Of a stretch of 64,000 bases of DNA, positions 6,001-18,000 are shown one piece after another. How positions within the stretch are numbered: the stretch's first letter is position 1; every line of letters starts with the position of its first letter. The stretch is from Zootoca vivipara. Taxonomy: Eukaryota. The DNA lies in the NCBI RefSeq assembly GCF_963506605.1, contig NC_083288.1, positions 45,818,001 through 45,882,000 of the forward strand, in the 5' to 3' direction. The position numbers were made by a program.

Positions 6001-9000
6001 ATAGAAGTGTCAGTAAGACCCCCAAATCACAACCATGAGGTTTTTCTGAGTGTCACATTTGTAGTTGGGGACAAATCTTTGCCATTTGAAAAGAAGGTCC
6101 AAAGTGGTTTGATAGGTCATTCTCCCATCAGAATAGCTGTCATAGATGTGGAAACCAAGGGTGACATTGGGCAAGGTCTATGGATTGTCATTGATCTCTT
6201 TTATGGCAAACACCAAGGCCAGGATGTTCTGATAGAAAGTGCAAAGGAGAAACCCAGAAAAGAGCAGGGGTGTCAAAGATACACTGCAGATCGCAACTAC
6301 CATTGCTCTCCTCTATCATACTGTAAATTATATTTTGACTGAATATGTTTTATGAACAGGGCATAACAGTCTGATGCATTAAAATATCTTCCCTATTGAC
6401 ACTTTAACTACAAAGTTCACAGTAAAGAATGTATTCCTGAACACTATCTACATAACAATATAACCCACATAAAGTACAGCTATCCATTATTATTTCCTGC
6501 TAAGCTGCTCCCTGCAGTTCAGTTCAGGTTTCAAGAGGATGATGTAGCATTTAGGGAGGAAGATACAAGCCAGTACACCAGCACTGGAAGCCAAGATGGA
6601 GAAGACCTCCACAGCCACCATGTGTTTTCCTCTTGTGCTTAGATAGGTTGGAACAAAAGAGACCCACACACTGCAAAATGCCAACATGCTGAATGTTATA
6701 AATTTAGCTTCATTAAAACTGTCTGGTAACTTGCGAGCAAGGAACGCCTCAATGAAGCTGGCAATGGCCAAAAGACCTAAGTAGCCCAGGACACAGTAAA
6801 ACATTGCAACAAGCCCTTCATTACATTGCACTATAATTTCTTCAGTTACTGAATACATGTCTAAATGGGGGAATGGGGGAGAGGTTGATAACCACACAGC
6901 ACAAATGCCTACTGGAATAAGGGAGCATGAAAGGACAATGGAAAAAGCCAGTCTTCTCCCCAGCCATTTCTTCATTCCAGAGCCAGGCTTTGAGGCCATA
7001 AATGCCAGAGAAACAATGGTTGTTTTTGCCAGAACGCATGAAACAACCACTGAGAAGATAATGCCAAATGTTGGTTGTCGGAGAAGGCAGATCGTTTTCC
7101 CAGGTTGGCCAATGAATAACAAAGAAGAGAGGAAGCAGAGCAGGAGGGAGATGAGGAGAGTGTAGGTAAGTTCCCGGTTGTTGGCTTTGACTATGGGGGT
7201 GTCTCTGTGCTTAATAAAAGTTCCTAGAATCAAGGCCGTGATCAGAGAAAAAGAAATTGCAAGTGAGGCTAAAGTGATCCCTATTGGTTCTTCATATGAG
7301 AGAAAAGTTTTGACTTTGGGGATGCACCCATTTTTATTCTTGTTTGGATATTGATCTTCTGGGCATCTGAAGCAGTCATCCATATCTGAAAAATAGAACA
7401 AGGGGTGTTGGAGAGAGAGAGATCTAGCTTCAGTGTATATTCATTGAGGGCATCTAATTATGATGGCAAAATGACATGATATACCAGTCAGGTTTGAAAT
7501 CTTCCCTTCTGGGCATGGGGTGCAATCATAGCAGCAAAACTTTTCTCCTTCCTTTTTCTTCTTCTGATGACCAGGCTGGCAGTGATCATTACACATAGAA
7601 AGAGGAAGCACCTATCCATAGACATGAAAATGTTTATGTTGGGTGGCATTTGGGGGGGGGGGAGCTTGTCTAGCCCAGTAGCATGCCTGGTAGCTCATGA
7701 AGAAATAGTATTCCTTCATTATCAGCACCCTTGACCCACCCTTCAGCATATGTTCCCAGAGTAGGGTATATTCAGAAGTAATATAATAAGTTTAAACAAT
7801 ATACTAAATGCATTTCTCCCCATAAGAATTGAGATACTTGGCATGGCAACCTTTCATATAGTGTTGAAGTTTTAGGTGGCACTGACTGCTTTCCAGAACT
7901 TAATGATTCACCAGAAAACCATGTTAGGTAAAGGTAAAGGGCCCCCTGACCTTTAGGTCCAGTCGTGACCGACTCTGGGGTTGCGGCGCTCATCTCGCAT
8001 TATTGGCCGAGGGAGCTGGCATACAGCTTCCAGGTCATGTGGCCAGCATGACAAAGCCACTTCTGGCGAACTAGAGCAGCGCACAGAAACACTGTTTACC
8101 TTCCCGCCGGAGCAGTACCTATTTATCTACTTGCACTTTGACGTGCTTTCGAACTGCTAGGTTGGCAGCAGCTGGGACTGAGCAACGGGAGCTCACCCCG
8201 CCACAGGGATTCGAACCGCCGACCTTCTGATCAGCAAGCCCTAGGCTCTGTGGTTTAACCCACAGTGCCACCTGCGTTCCCCCCCCTTTCTTTTGGCATT
8301 GCAACCTTTCAAATAGTGTTGAAGTTTTAGGTGGCACTGACTGCTTTCCAGAACTTGATGATTCACCAGAAAACCATGTTAGGTGTTAATAATAATAATA
8401 ATAATAATAATAAAGCCACTTCCGTGCCTTTGCCGGAGGTGGAGTTGTGGGCAGCCCGACGAGCCCATTGCGTGGGGGCTGCAGTGTCAGCCCCTACGCA
8501 ATGGTAGTGCCCGCCTGCGTCATCCGCCCCCTTGTCCAATAGGGATGAGGGGGCGGGGCCGCAGCGTTTAAACCCCTTCGCGCGGCCGGGGCCCGTTCTC
8601 TTTCTCCTTGTTCGCCGGAGCGAACAGAAGCACTCGTCGCAGTCCTTGGTTTTTTTTTGCCTTTGCCTCGTGCCTTCGCTTAATTTAGGTCCCGTTCATT
8701 GTTTCCCCACCTCGTTCCTCTTTTCTCTTCCTTTCCAGGTCCTGCCTCGTGGGAGCGTCGGGGGCTTTCTCCGCTCGGCAGTTCTTCCTCGCTCATCAGC
8801 TGTTCCTGGCAGCTGCGTCTTTAGCGCCAGTCAGCTGTTTTTCGGATCTGAGGCTCCCGCAGCCTTTAGGAGCTCACAGCCGCGGCGGATCCTGGGCGCC
8901 AGCAACGGAGGAACGCTAGCCAGCCGTATCCGGGCCCAAGGCTCCCACAGCCTCCAGGAGCCTTTTAGCTGCTGAGGTTCCAGCTGCTCTGGGGGCAGAG

Positions 9001-15000: not shown

Positions 15001-18000
15001 CTTAATTAGGCGAATAAGAGAGTAGGGTCACACCTCCCCGATAATATCTTAATTCATATCTTATAACAAATTAACCGAGGGCTAAGCTACTAATTAGGGT
15101 TACGCTAAAAATTAATATCTAGGTGCCTATAACATGTGAGCGGATTGGCGGCGAGCCTGGGGGGGCTCGAGTGGCGGTTAGGCGTTGGAAATTTGCATAA
15201 CAATAAGATGGAGGAGGGGCAGATTGCGTCATCACCTGCCCAAATTTGGAGAAGTAATTCCGTTAAAGGATTCCGGGGGCGAGGCTTGGTCCAGAGCCTG
15301 GAGTCGCCAGGGCCGTAAGGCACGCCCCGTACGGTGGCCACAGAAGGAGTTCCGGTTGATCGGCATCGCCGGGTTCCTTACTGGTGGTTAACTTCTCACG
15401 GACTCCAACACACGGGTTGGAGTCGGATTTAGTCTGATAGGTTCCAACGCCTAAGCCAATTCCGCTCAACATGCATATTTAATAAAGTTGTGGCCTGAAC
15501 CACCCAATTAACCTTTAAATTCTGTGTCACGTGTCATTATTACACTGATCGGAGGGCATTGCTACACAAAGCCACTTCCGTGCCTTTGCCGGAGGTGGAG
15601 TTGTGGGCAGCCCGACGAGCCCATTGCGTGGGGGCTGCAGTGTCAGCCCCTACGCAATGGTAGTGCCCGCCTGCGTCATCCGCCCCCTTGTCCAATAGGG
15701 ATGAGGGGGCGGGGCCGCAGCGTTTAAACCCCTTCGCGCGGCCGGGGCCCGTTCTCTTTCTCCTTGTTCGCCGGAGCGAACAGAAGCACCCGCCCACCCG
15801 CCCCTTAAAAAGAGAATAGGGGGCGCTGCTGCGGACCTGGTCGGTTGCCTGGTTAGTCAGTGGACCGGGTAGGACTTTTCCCATACTGGGCTAGCCATGA
15901 TGGGTTTTTCGCCTACCTCGTAGCATGTCGTCACAACTTAGGTTAGGCGGTTAGGCGTTGGAAATTTGCATAACAATAAGATGGAGGAGGGGCAGATTGC
16001 GTCATCACCTGCCCAAATTTGGAGAAGTAATTCCGTTAAAGGATTCCGGGGGCGAGGCTTGGTCCAGAGCCTGGAGTCGCCAGGGCCGTAAGGCACGCCC
16101 CGTACGGTGGCCACAGAAGGAGTTCCGGTTGATCGGCATCGCCGGGTTCCTTACTGGTGGTTAACTTCTCACGGACTCCAACACACGGGTTGGAGTCGGA
16201 TTTAGTCTGATAGGTTCCAACGCCTAAGCCAATTCCGCTCAACATGCATATTTAATAAAGTTGTGGCCTGAACCACCCAATTAACCTTTAAATTCTGTGT
16301 CACGTGTCATTATTACACTGATCGGAGGGCATTGCTACACAATAATAATAACAACAAACAACAACAATAATAATTTTACGATTTATAAAAAACACAATAA
16401 AACAGCTCATCCACATTTGCATTTCCTCCACTCTTTCAAGAAACGTCCTGTGCTTTAGGGCTCTGTCCCACAGTGCTCCCTCATGAAAACCAGCTCTTTA
16501 AAGCTGAATGGAAGCAAATGATTCAGCTTTGAAGAGTGGATTTTCACAGGGAAAGTTGTTGGGGGGGGCAGTTTGGACACAGAGCACTGAAGTGCAGACT
16601 TCTGCCTTGAAAGAGCGGGGCTAAGAACTGAATCCTGATGCATTAACATCCCAGTTGGTATAAAGAAGATCCCTCAAGAGAACAGGAGAATCCATACCTG
16701 ATTAAAATGACTGTGCCACACAATCATATGCTCATTAATGGTGAATTTGCTTTCTTCTAAATCATTGGGATCCACCTTTCCAACTCTCACTGTCTGGAAG
16801 GAGTTGTTGGGGAATAGGACCAGGTTCGTTATATCAAACCCACTTCTCATTTCCCTTTTATTATTAAAAGACACAGCTTCATTTGCTGAGTTGTTAAATG
16901 AAATGTCTCGGAGAAATTGGTGGAGCTAGTTGGGGGGAAAACAGAGCAAGTAACAGAAGGTGTAACATGGTTGTGGGAATTTTAGACTCAAATTCGTTTC
17001 AGGTTCTGCACCACCTGTTCATTAGCCAGCTGAGGGTACACTTTTTAAAATTAAACACAGAACCAAGAACCTGGTTTCTTAACTATCGTGATAGGACTGC
17101 CTTCCCAACCAGTTGCCTTCCCAACCAAATTCTCTAATTGGGAAAAGCATTGAGTCTCTTTCCCAAGGCAGTGGATTGAAGCAAAGGGAGATTTAGCACA
17201 CTTACCATTAGTTGTTTCTATTATATTTTGTATGTCATCTTCATATATACAAAGATTTATGTTTGAAATAAGATTCGCAAAGGCATCACGTATATTACAG
17301 TGAGAATAGGGTTCTGGATGAGATGGGATTTTGGTCCGATCTACAAGTCCTCTTATGTTCATATGTAGGCTCCACCTTTCTTTGATTTAGAACCCTGAAT
17401 GTGCAGGGGGAGCCTCAATGGAGAGGGAATTCCATGCATCAGAAGAATGCCCTTCAGTTCATGGTGGTGGGTTGTTAGGATAGGGACTATGTCTATCAGC
17501 TCCATCTGGTACGCAGGCTGAGTCCCTACCTGCCTGCAGACTGTCTCGCCAGAGTGGTGCATGCTCTAGTTATCTCCCGCTTGGACTATTGCAATGCTCT
17601 CTATGTGGGGCTACCTTTGAAGGTGACCCGGAAACTACAACTAATCCAGAATGCAGCAGCTAGACTGGTGACTGGGAGCGGCCGCCGAGACCACATAACT
17701 TTGGTCTTGAAAGACTTGCATTGGCTCCCAGTACGTTTCCGAGCACAGTTCAAAGTGTTGGTGCTGACCTTTAAAGCCATAAACAGCCTCAGTCCAGTAT
17801 ACCTGAAGGAGCGTCTCCACCCCCATTGTTCTGCCCGGACACTGAGGTCCAGTACCGAGGGCCTTCTGGCGGTTCCCTCGTTGCGAGAAGCCAAGTTTCA
17901 GGGAACCAGGCAGAGGGCCTTCTCAGTGGTGGTGCCCACCCTGTGGAATACCCTCCCATCAGATGTCAAAGAGAAAAACAGCTACCAGATTTTTACAAGG

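What the first reader, a model, noticed from the sequence alone, without database searches (positions are those of the whole stretch)
8412..16342. Young, seemingly intact Ngaro retrotransposon in a lizard V2R intron
All four ORFs are open, and A1/A2 and B1/B2 look identical by eye, which indicates recent transposition and possibly an active family. It lies antisense in intron 4 of an intact V2R and expands that intron to ~9 kb (0.6-2.5 kb in paralogs). Hydrolase-bearing Ngaro elements are best known from fish, amphibians and invertebrates, so an intact squamate copy is notable.
[Added by the scan's program, not by the reader: the finding's places include an assembly gap (unread letters, written N; its length is only estimated) at 10168 to 10345. 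Whether the letters on both sides are continuous or in frame is not known: test that first.]
Basis: partly seen in the sequence, partly recalled or inferred. Interest (0 to 1): 0.65.

Follow-up and report, generated by a model that had tools for sequence, protein, structure and literature searches.

The report
Young Ngaro retrotransposon in V2R intron
A recently inserted, nearly complete copy of a tyrosine-recombinase retrotransposon lies backwards inside an intron of a lizard-type pheromone-receptor gene; it is a well-preserved member of a known kind of mobile element, not a new kind.

Summary
A1 (8412-8633) equals A2 (15568-15789), and B1 (15173-15569) equals B2 (15946-16342), with 0 differences in 619 positions. 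The order A1...B1-A2-B2 is the Ngaro layout. ORF1 (CCCH finger), ORF2 (RT/RNase H) and ORF3 (Cre-like tyrosine recombinase) are full length against relatives. ORF4 folds as an SGNH esterase (pLDDT 90.9).

Two caveats limit "intact". The 178-N gap lies in the non-coding stretch between A1 and ORF1, so no reading frame crosses it, but that stretch is unread. ORF4 has no ATG ahead of its catalytic block and sits in frame behind ORF3's stop.

The element is antisense in intron 4 of an exon-by-exon open V2R: 9086 nt against 592-2542 nt in four paralogs. It was inserted into an (AAT)n microsatellite, with a 2-nt overlap and no target duplication. High CpG content also points to a young insertion.

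Relatives of ORF2 are annotated in 8 squamate species, so squamate presence is not new in the data. None of the papers whose passages I read describes one. Verdict: new member of a known kind, modest interest.

The parts
8387..8411 (.). Left flank: (TAA/AAT)n microsatellite abutting the element
   Evidence: TRF finds (TAA)9 at 8387-8413; sequence read. (AAT)5 or longer occurs at only 3 places in the 64 kb window.
8412..8633 (+). Repeat A1 (5' end of the element)
   Evidence: 222/222 identical to A2, with no similarity upstream of 8412.
8634..10411 (+). 5' non-coding stretch between A1 and ORF1. It holds a 56-nt x2.1 array (9065-9184), a 48-nt x3.6 array (9370-9542), an AT-rich part from about 9600 with a 94-nt repeat (9716-9807 / 10045-10136, 89%), and the assembly gap.
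   Evidence: No Pfam family for the 147-aa frame 8532-8975. No Rfam family.
10168..10345 (.). Assembly gap (178 N) inside the 5' non-coding stretch; outside every element ORF
   Evidence: The - strand 'ORF' 10165-10662 is an artefact that runs through the N run.
10412..11881 (+). ORF1, 489 aa, gag-position protein with a CCCH zinc-finger block
   Evidence: zf-CCCH_10 E 0.0048, below the curated cut-off. 14 relatives, the named ones all from lacertid lizards, 43-50% identity at up to 99% coverage in the full-length ones. Aligns end to end with 8 relatives, first M aligned.
11604..13493 (+). ORF2, 629 aa, reverse transcriptase / RNase H; overlaps ORF1 by 278 nt in another frame
   Evidence: RVT_1 E 6.1e-11; RVT_3 E 0.0024. 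Best relative 74% identity over 98% of the query. Agrees at 177 of 179 columns where at least 12 of 13 relatives are identical. The family profile hits retroviral, Ty3 and caulimovirus RTs at E 1e-4 to 8e-3.
13439..14374 (+). ORF3, 311 aa from the first start codon of any type (first ATG at codon 10), tyrosine recombinase; overlaps ORF2 by 55 nt
   Evidence: Phage_integrase E 3.5e-7. Aligns with Cre recombinase, residues 31-310 against 46-326, E 3.9e-7, with the active-site Arg, Lys, His-x-x-Arg, Trp and Tyr columns matched.
14375..14998 (+). ORF4 frame, 207 codons, SGNH/GDSL-type esterase domain. Same frame as ORF3, and no ATG ahead of the catalytic block (one possible defect).
   Evidence: Details are in the full report.
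15173..15569 (+). Repeat B1; carries an AATAAA-type signal at offset 309
   Evidence: 397/397 identical to B2. Signal at 15481 in B1 and 16254 in B2.
15568..15789 (+). Repeat A2; its first 2 nt (AA) are also the last 2 nt of B1
15790..15945 (+). Unique 156-nt spacer between A2 and B2
   Evidence: Follows from the coordinates.
15946..16342 (+). Repeat B2 (3' end of the element)
16343..16373 (.). Right flank: continuation of the (AAT)n tract, then an imperfect (AAC/AAT)n tract
   Evidence: Sequence read.
7485..7611 (-). Host V2R exon 5 (nine-cysteine domain)
   Evidence: NCD3G E 1.7e-15. AG and GT at its borders.
16698..16925 (-). Host V2R exon 4 (228 nt)
   Evidence: Open frame. AG and GT at its borders. 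51-68% identical copies in four paralogs. No Pfam family on its own.
7612..16697 (-). Host V2R intron 4 (9086 nt), holding the element in antisense

Best explanation
The stretch 8412-16342 is one young insertion of an Ngaro-like retrotransposon (order DIRS). This is a retroelement that uses a tyrosine recombinase instead of a DDE integrase.

Shown here:
- The split direct repeats A1...B1-A2-B2 are present and identical.
- ORF1 (CCCH-finger protein in the gag position), ORF2 (RT/RNase H) and ORF3 (Cre-like recombinase with all active-site columns) are complete.
- A fourth frame folds as an SGNH esterase.
- The insertion is in an (AAT)n microsatellite. The only shared letters are the 2 nt (AA) that also sit at the internal B1/A2 joint, and there is no target-site duplication.

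Inferred from the published model for split-repeat elements (PMC6681497, PMC7192593, PMC3266345; passages only):
- The RNA starts in A1 and ends after the poly(A) signal in B2.
- The missing ends are copied back from the internal B1-A2 joint during reverse transcription, which is why the repeat pairs are identical at insertion.
- The recombinase then crosses the B/A joint of the DNA copy with a short matching sequence in the target.

The element lies antisense in intron 4 of a V2R whose exons are all open. It is most likely a passenger that lengthens the intron about eightfold.

Whether this copy is complete is open on two counts. Its 5' non-coding stretch holds an assembly gap. Its esterase frame has no ATG of its own and follows the recombinase in the same frame behind one stop. 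So the esterase is either made by some non-standard route (leaky termination, re-initiation, non-AUG start or a spliced RNA) or is not made from this copy.
For: Repeats and layout: 222/222 and 397/397 identical, in the order A1...B1-A2-B2. No terminal inverted repeats.

Domains: RVT_1 6.1e-11 and Phage_integrase 3.5e-7, with no methyltransferase and no rve family. ORF3 aligns with Cre at E 3.9e-7, catalytic columns matched.

Full length: ORF1 aligns end to end with 8 relatives. ORF2 has 98% coverage at 74% identity and agrees at 177 of 179 conserved columns.

Esterase:
- 22 relatives, 7 carrying precomputed PF13472.
- The GHS, GxND and DxxH blocks are kept.
- The family profile against PDB gives the ZfL2-1 LINE ORF1p esterase 4c1b at E 4.6e-8, then GDSL-like proteins.
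- The AlphaFold model has pLDDT 90.9 and pTM 0.86.
- Foldseek finds 148 PDB matches at E <= 0.001, the top ones GDSL/SGNH acylhydrolases with TM 0.68-0.72.
- Atlas clusters named SGNH esterase score 0.98.

Insertion site. (AAT)5 or longer occurs at only 3 places in 64 kb.

Youth: 0 differences in 619 positions gives a 95% upper bound of 0.48% divergence. CpG observed/expected is 0.49-1.06 in the element against 0.20-0.41 in the flanking intron.

Host: 7tm_3 1.8e-86, NCD3G 1.7e-15 and ANF_receptor hits, with canonical splice borders.
Against: No named Ngaro reference came back from any search, so the placement rests on layout and gene content, not on a tree.

The window's own ORF4 protein gives no Pfam family at E <= 0.01 and no meaningful PDB sequence hit (best E 1.1, unrelated). 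Only the 17-sequence profile and the fold do.

ORF2 alone gives no PDB sequence hit at 0.01.

ORF4 has no ATG ahead of its catalytic block, while 21 of 22 relatives start 4-144 residues ahead of it.

The RNA downstream of ORF3's stop shows no unusual structure (z = 0.62; 137 of 200 shuffles fold at least as well). That gives no support to a structured read-through signal.

The gap hides an unknown length of the 5' stretch. No second copy lies in the window, so copy number, polymorphism and target preference rest on this single case.
Confidence: 0.85

Rival explanations
1. The copy is a dead end, not a complete element. Either its esterase cannot be translated as a whole, or the unread part of the 5' stretch hides a rearrangement or a nested insertion. 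It would then be a young but defective product of an active master elsewhere.
For: There is no ATG ahead of the catalytic block of ORF4, while 21 of 22 relatives start ahead of it. In 5 of 11 relatives examined, the recombinase end and the esterase lie collinear in one predicted protein, so a single uninterrupted frame may be the ancestral state. The 5' stretch is long (1778 nt counting the gap), changes abruptly from about 60% to about 30% GC, and holds the gap.
Against: The repeats are identical and ORF1-3 are full length with conserved columns kept. ORF4 keeps 40 of 44 strongly conserved columns and folds confidently, as expected if it was under selection until very recently. The fused relatives are automatic gene models, which cannot contain a stop and may skip one.
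Confidence: 0.35
2. Scaffolding artefact: the piece left of the gap (A1 plus about 1.5 kb) and the piece right of it come from two different copies, or two loci, joined by the assembler.
For: The gap lies inside the element, next to repeated, AT-rich sequence that assemblers handle badly.
Against: Both outer flanks are the same (AAT)n tract and read as one continuous microsatellite once the shared AA is counted once. Host exon 5 lies left and exon 4 right, in the correct order, strand and phase. Base composition matches on both sides of the gap.
Confidence: 0.07
3. It belongs to another repeat-bearing retroelement group: DIRS1-like, PAT-like, or an LTR element such as Gypsy, BEL or ERV.
For: RT profile hits in PDB are to retroviral, Ty3 and caulimovirus enzymes. 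RepeatMasker-style pipelines often file DIRS elements under LTR (PMC9210276, passages).
Against: No inverted terminal repeats. No methyltransferase or DDE integrase family. The repeat order is A1...B1-A2-B2, not A1-B1...A2-B2. There is no target-site duplication.
Confidence: 0.03
4. It is an old, fixed copy whose repeats were kept identical by gene conversion, or whose genes were taken over by the host.
For: Nothing direct. No population or cross-species data could be seen.
Against: CpG observed/expected is two to four times that of the flanking intron. All four frames are open, both repeat pairs are perfectly identical, and the termini are intact. Host take-over would not preserve the non-coding repeats.
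Confidence: 0.03

Closest known systems
[quoted passage not shown]
   Same: Four ORFs in the same order (gag-like, RT/RH, YR, SGNH hydrolase). Split direct repeats A1...B1-A2-B2 that are 100% identical in young copies. Frog proteins are about 46-52% identical to ORF2, though I could not show that those proteins are the DIRS-53/54 families.
   Different: Repeat sizes differ: A 236 and B 152 bp in the frog copy, against A 222 and B 397 bp here. In the frog all reading frames overlap. Here ORF3 and ORF4 do not overlap, share a frame, and ORF4 has no ATG ahead of its catalytic block. The 5' non-coding stretch here is long (about 1.8 kb).
Unnamed loci of lacertid lizards annotated as 'uncharacterized protein' (for example Zootoca vivipara LOC118096659 and Podarcis muralis LOC144328297)
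   Same: Closest relatives of ORF1 (up to 50% identity at 99% coverage), ORF2 (up to 74%) and ORF4 (up to 54%). Clearly the same element lineage.
   Different: No protein in the collection is closer than 74%, so this subfamily or host species is not among the annotated ones. I saw only proteins, not their DNA, so their repeats and layout are unknown.
Ngaro1 of zebrafish (Goodwin and Poulter 2004), the founding member
   Same: By citation in PMC9210276, PMC6681497 and PMC7192593 (passages): split direct repeats, gag-like, RT/RH and YR genes, no methyltransferase, and a hydrolase ORF in some members.
   Different: Not compared directly. The paper is not held and no named Ngaro protein came back from a search.
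Esterase domain of ZfL2-1 LINE ORF1p (PDB 4c1b; PMC3905857, passages)
   Same: Best solved-structure match of the ORF4 family profile (E 4.6e-8), and also found by fold (E 1.6e-6, 20% identity). An SGNH esterase carried by a retrotransposon; the paper shows hydrolytic activity and binding of negatively charged phospholipids.
   Different: It is a domain of the first ORF of a non-LTR element, not a frame behind a recombinase. The profile alignment covers blocks II-V only. By fold, bacterial GDSL acylhydrolases score higher (TM 0.68-0.72, against 0.43 for the split 4c1b crystal form). The word search of that paper found no mention of Ngaro or DIRS.
Cre recombinase of phage P1 (for example PDB 7rhy, 1nzb)
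   Same: ORF3 aligns over both domains (31-310 against 46-326), with the active-site columns matched.
   Different: Low identity. ORF3 acts, by inference, on a 2-nt overlap, not on a defined 34-bp site. It is part of a retroelement.

Membership tests
Ngaro-like retrotransposons (order DIRS) | Split direct repeats in the order A1 ... B1-A2-B2, with A1=A2 and B1=B2 | tested here: met
   222/222 and 397/397 identical; B1 abuts A2 with a 2-nt overlap. Definition from PMC9210276 and PMC6681497 (passages).
Ngaro-like retrotransposons (order DIRS) | RT/RNase H gene | tested here: met
   RVT_1 6.1e-11 and RVT_3 0.0024; profile hits to solved RTs.
Ngaro-like retrotransposons (order DIRS) | Tyrosine recombinase gene with a complete active site | tested here: met
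   Phage_integrase 3.5e-7. Cre alignment with the Arg, Lys, His-x-x-Arg, Trp and Tyr columns matched. Which Cre columns are catalytic is recalled, not taken from a call.
Ngaro-like retrotransposons (order DIRS) | Gag-like first ORF | tested here: inconclusive
   Right position and size, a basic stretch and a conserved CCCH finger. No Gag family is matched, and the finger hit is below the curated cut-off.
Ngaro-like retrotransposons (order DIRS) | No methyltransferase domain | tested here: met
   No such family in ORF2 or ORF3 at E <= 0.01.
Ngaro-like retrotransposons (order DIRS) | Insertion without target-site duplication, through a short sequence shared by the element's joint and the target | tested here: met
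   Only AA is shared, and the flanks rejoin into one (AAT)n tract. The published rule is for DIRS elements, with 3 nt (PMC3266345, PMC7192593; passages).
Ngaro-like retrotransposons (order DIRS) | RT/RH groups with named Ngaro references in a tree | not testable with these tools
Hydrolase-bearing subset of Ngaro | SGNH hydrolase frame after the recombinase | tested here: met
   The frame lacks its own ATG ahead of the catalytic block.
DIRS1-like | Inverted terminal repeats plus an internal complementary region; methyltransferase domain | tested here: not met
   No terminal inverted repeats; no methyltransferase family.
PAT-like | Split repeats in the order A1-B1 ... A2-B2 | tested here: not met
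   There is no B copy next to A1. This order for PAT-like elements is recalled, not read in a call.
LTR retrotransposons / endogenous retroviruses | Two terminal LTRs, a DDE integrase, and a 4-6 bp target duplication | tested here: not met
   The repeats are not terminal pairs, there is no rve family, and there is no duplication.
SGNH/GDSL hydrolases (ORF4) | Conserved blocks with Ser (block I), Gly, Asn (GxND) and Asp-x-x-His (block V) | tested here: met
   GHS, GENDL and DGVHL lie in invariant or near-invariant columns of 17 sequences.
SGNH/GDSL hydrolases (ORF4) | Flavodoxin-like alpha/beta fold with five parallel strands | tested here: met
   Model pLDDT 90.9 with five strands alternating with helices. 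148 PDB matches at E <= 0.001, the top ones GDSL-like.
SGNH/GDSL hydrolases (ORF4) | Pfam Lipase_GDSL_2 at or above the gathering score on the protein itself | tested here: not met
   No family at E <= 0.01. Among 24 relatives scanned, 9 match PF13472 and only 1 of them is above the cut-off.
Vomeronasal type-2 receptor (host gene) | ANF_receptor, NCD3G and 7tm_3 domains in order, on six exons | tested here: met
   7tm_3 1.8e-86, ANF 1.8e-18 and 4.3e-14, NCD3G 1.7e-15. Tested exon by exon only; the exon 1 and exon 4 pieces match no family on their own.

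The most novel reading that the evidence does not exclude
This lizard Ngaro lineage may differ from the textbook picture in three linked ways. First, its recombinase aims the element at (AAT)n microsatellites through a 2-nt crossover. Second, its SGNH esterase is not a free-standing fourth gene. It would be made as a tail on the recombinase by occasional reading past one stop, or from a processed RNA. 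Third, that esterase is the same retrotransposon-type, lipid-binding module that CR1/L2 LINEs carry in ORF1p. If so, a membrane- or lipid-linked step is shared by two unrelated orders of retrotransposons.
Probability: 0.15. Interest if true: 0.55.

Novelty: new member of a known kind. Interest (0 to 1): 0.3.

Why it matters
It is a clean, datable example showing that hydrolase-bearing Ngaro-like elements were moving very recently in a lizard lineage. One paper in the searchable literature says lizards lack this group.

The protein hits show the family is spread across geckos, iguanians, lacertids, cordylids, amphisbaenians and a snake, hidden under 'uncharacterized protein' gene models. That matters for annotation, because these models inflate gene counts.

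For the V2R cluster, it shows how one insertion lengthens an intron about eightfold without touching the exons.

Three small leads are directly testable by description alone: the microsatellite target, the start-less esterase frame behind the recombinase, and the sequence link to the LINE ORF1p esterase.

Tried and rejected
- Other copies in the window: blastn of both halves of the element against the window found only its own repeats.
- Similarity between the two sides of the gap: only chance 7-9-nt matches.
- Rfam over 8000-16800: nothing.
- Read-through signal: the 105 nt around and after ORF3's stop fold no better than shuffles (z 0.62). I found no support for a structured signal; a leaky stop without structure is not excluded.
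- Single-sequence searches that gave nothing: ORF2 against PDB, ORF4 against Pfam, ORF4 against PDB.
- Is the esterase fed by an upstream element exon? The N-terminal extensions of 22 hydrolase relatives were compared with ORF1-3. Three Podarcis models carry a middle piece of the recombinase, one weakly matches an ORF1 relative, and none matches ORF1's start. Of 144 family representatives, 1 holds an ORF1-like piece and 2 hold ORF2-like pieces. These may be deletion derivatives or automatic splice models; without their DNA I cannot tell. I left a splice model for ORF4 untested and built no joined sequence.
- A second esterase in the window, for example in the LINE at 61 kb: the family profile hits only ORF4 among 785 six-frame fragments.
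- Literature: one search was wasted, because its settings did not require the word Ngaro. Goodwin and Poulter 2004 is not held. The Ngaro + esterase search (19 papers, one listed) and the Ngaro + target site + microsatellite search (7 papers) gave listings that look unrelated by title. I did not read them, except PMC12477816 (passages), which says nothing on targets.
- Not used: genome contigs, because it holds bacteria and archaea only.
The supplementary tables of PMC9210276 may hold ORF coordinates that bear on the ORF3/ORF4 layout.

Full report
**1. What is there**

The window has two N runs. One of them, 10168-10345 (178 N), lies inside the finding.

An exact-match extension gives two repeat pairs. 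A1 8412-8633 equals A2 15568-15789 (222 nt). B1 15173-15569 equals B2 15946-16342 (397 nt). Both pairs have no mismatch, and identity falls to background (0.1-0.3) immediately outside.

B1 and A2 overlap by two bases, AA.

No terminal inverted repeats exist. One search found none, at laxer settings, found only six short pairs, none terminal. No other copy or fragment of the element lies elsewhere in the 64 kb.

**2. The gap, tested first**

The gap lies in the non-coding stretch between A1 and the ATG of ORF1 at 10412. Three results show that no element reading frame crosses it:
- A stop in ORF1's frame lies between the gap and that ATG.
- ORF1 aligns from its first methionine with 8 relatives.
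- The - strand '165-aa ORF' listed merely runs through the N run.

So the question 'in frame?' does not arise for any gene.

Continuity cannot be shown, but three things fit one locus:
- Both sides are AT-rich (25-36% GC) while the rest of the element is 50-65%.
- The outer flanks of the two pieces are the same microsatellite.
- Host exon 5 lies left and exon 4 right, in the correct order, strand and phase.

A 94-nt repeat (9716-9807 / 10045-10136, 89%) just left of the gap suggests why assembly broke there. The true length and content of the 5' stretch are unknown. I did not look for the missing letters.

**3. Genes of the element (+ strand)**

- **ORF1**, 10412-11881, 489 aa. It has only a sub-threshold CCCH-finger hit. 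It has 14 relatives; the named ones are all lacertid, and the full-length ones are 43-50% identical at up to 99% coverage. It aligns end to end with 8 of them, including a conserved finger block.
- **ORF2**, 11604-13493, 629 aa. It matches RVT_1 (6.1e-11) and weakly RVT_3. It carries the YLDD motif (read). It agrees with relatives at 177 of 179 columns where at least 12 of 13 are identical. Its family profile finds solved retroviral, Ty3 and caulimovirus RTs at E 1e-4 to 8e-3. The single sequence finds none at 0.01.
- **ORF3**, 13439-14374. It matches Phage_integrase (3.5e-7). It aligns with Cre recombinase over residues 31-310, with the columns of the catalytic Arg, Lys, His-x-x-Arg, Trp and Tyr matched. 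Which Cre columns are catalytic is recalled.
- No methyltransferase and no DDE integrase family is present.
- Breaks: no frameshift and no internal stop in ORF1, ORF2 or ORF3.

**4. The fourth frame**

The frame 14375-14998 (207 codons) has no Pfam family of its own at E <= 0.01 and no meaningful PDB sequence hit. The evidence that it is an SGNH esterase comes from relatives, profile and fold:
- It has 22 relatives at E <= 1e-3 among 555 candidates. 12 are named, all from Podarcis or Hemicordylus, and 7 carry PF13472.
- In an alignment with 16 of those 22, the window keeps the GHS, GxND and DxxH blocks. It keeps 40 of 44 columns where at least 14 of 16 relatives agree.
- A profile of that alignment finds 4223 cluster representatives at E <= 1e-3 and 616 at E <= 1e-30.
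- In PDB, the profile's best hit is the esterase of the zebrafish ZfL2-1 LINE ORF1p (4c1b, E 4.6e-8), ahead of GDSL-like proteins.
- The AlphaFold model is confident (pLDDT 90.9, pTM 0.86). It has five strands alternating with helices, and the first 20 residues are disordered.
- Foldseek gives 148 PDB matches at E <= 0.001. They are led by GDSL/SGNH acylhydrolases (TM 0.68-0.72) and include PAF acetylhydrolase and 4c1b.
- Atlas clusters named SGNH esterase score 0.98.

The caveat concerns how it is expressed:
- The frame is the same as ORF3's and begins right behind ORF3's stop.
- It holds no ATG ahead of the catalytic-serine block.
- In 21 of 22 relatives the predicted protein starts 4-144 residues ahead of that block.
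- Among 144 fetched family representatives, 9 carry a recombinase-like part ahead of the esterase.
- I examined 11 such proteins (those 9 plus 2 cluster members, P0300 and P0304) against a one-frame read of ORF3 through ORF4. Five are collinear across the boundary in a single match: two Podarcis muralis models, one Haliotis rufescens model and two unnamed. In the other 6 a part of the recombinase is missing.
- These are automatic gene models, so they cannot settle whether an uninterrupted recombinase-esterase frame is the native state.
- The RNA after the stop is not unusually structured (z 0.62).

I count this as one possible defect of ORF4: a missing start of its own, or equivalently one stop between it and ORF3. 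Its domain is otherwise unbroken.

**5. Insertion site**

A (TAA)9 tract ends at the first bases of A1. The tract continues right after B2.

The internal B1/A2 joint and the two genomic ends share exactly the two bases AA. With AA counted once, the flanks rejoin into one uninterrupted (AAT)n tract. There is no target-site duplication.

This is what conservative recombination between the element's B/A joint and a short matching target predicts. Published work describes the same logic for DIRS elements, with 3 nt (PMC3266345 and PMC7192593, passages).

(AAT)5 or longer occurs at only three places in the window. A random landing in one is therefore unlikely, roughly one in a thousand by length, but this is a single case.

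**6. Age**

The published model implies that A1/A2 and B1/B2 are identical at insertion (PMC6681497, passage).

Zero differences in 619 positions puts a 95% upper bound of 0.48% on their divergence. That means under 1.2 to 4.8 million years for assumed rates of 2e-9 to 0.5e-9 per site per year. The rates are my assumptions, not measured for this species.

Independently, CpG observed/expected is 0.49-1.06 in the element against 0.20-0.41 in the flanking intron. Both B copies carry an AATAAA-type signal at offset 309 of 397. That fits a transcript ending inside B2.

**7. Host gene**

I examined it exon by exon.

On the - strand:
- Exon 6, 6490-7385: 7tm_3, 1.8e-86.
- Exon 5, 7485-7611: NCD3G, 1.7e-15.
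- Exon 4, 16698-16925.
- Exon 3, within 18249-19085: ANF_receptor, 1.8e-18.
- Exon 2, within 19380-19742: ANF_receptor, 4.3e-14.
- Exon 1, 20481-20695, starting with ATG.

AG/GT borders are present, and the phases of exons 4, 5 and 6 agree.

Intron 4 is 9086 nt, of which the element is 7931 including the N run. In four paralogs of the window intron 4 is 2542, 592, 848 and 882 nt. The element runs opposite to the gene.

**8. Relatives and novelty**

ORF2 has 964 relatives at E <= 1e-3 among 8000 scored candidates. Of the 120 listed, 31 carry squamate names from 8 species:
- Zootoca vivipara and Podarcis muralis, 65-74% among the best ten rows.
- Eublepharis, two Anolis species, Hemicordylus, Rhineura and the snake Erythrolamprus, 53-61%.
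- Frogs and a newt follow at about 46-52%.

Hydrolase relatives also carry names from Sceloporus, Eublepharis and Zootoca. No hit is closer than 74%, so this subfamily or species is not among the annotated proteins. I did not try to name the species.

In the searchable papers:
- Ngaro-like elements with an SGNH ORF are described for Xenopus (PMC9210276, passages and section 8).
- One paper says Ngaro is absent from lizards (PMC4746887, passage).
- The papers I opened from the squamate, lizard, Anolis, reptile and snake searches describe no squamate Ngaro (passages only). For the remaining rows I saw titles and abstract openings only.
- Repbase and Dfam could not be checked.

The element is thus a new, well-preserved member of a known kind. 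Its presence in squamates is evident in public protein sets, though I found it unremarked in print.

**9. Limits**

- No lizard genome DNA could be searched.
- Copy number, polymorphism, a tree with named references, and the state of other copies therefore stay unchecked.

Noticed in passing
window 7838-7929 and 8293-8384; 7928-8294; 21442-21822: A 92-nt direct repeat (97%) brackets a stretch of about 363 nt. That stretch is 86% like another stretch in the intergenic space upstream of the host gene's exon 1. It is either a short interspersed repeat with an odd, long flanking duplication or a 455-nt tandem duplication. It lies just left of the microsatellite that received the element.
   Followed up: no
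window 34441-34576: A second assembly gap (136 N), between two V2R paralogs.
   Followed up: no
window 6490-7401, 24664-25440, 37196-38095, 49894-50793, 57067-57966 (- strand): Five V2R paralogs lie in tandem, all on the - strand, with 7tm_3 exons 74-79% identical in protein. The 7tm_3 frame at 24664-25440 is shorter (258 aa) than the others.
   Followed up: partly
window 61059-63188 (+); 48852-49517 (-): A 709-aa open LINE-type frame (RVT_1 1.3e-27 plus ALKBH8_N 3.5e-21), and a separate RT fragment between paralogs. The esterase profile of the Ngaro ORF4 family finds nothing near them.
   Followed up: partly
window 6032-6262 (-); 38198-38311 (-); 60456-60527 (-): Stray V2R exon-like pieces: an exon-2-like piece below the host gene's last exon, a second and weaker exon-5-like piece in the third paralog, and a partial exon-4-like piece.
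   Followed up: no
proteins P0133, P0134, P0138 (Podarcis muralis gene models): Three automatic gene models join the middle of a recombinase directly to the esterase, skipping the recombinase's catalytic end. They are internally deleted element copies or artefactual splice models. They are examples of transposon frames annotated as host genes.
   Followed up: partly
proteins P0194 and P0222 (library representatives): Two esterase-family representatives are fused in their predicted proteins to host domains (VGLL4; PRP39 HAT repeats). These are probably gene models that swallowed an intronic element.
   Followed up: no
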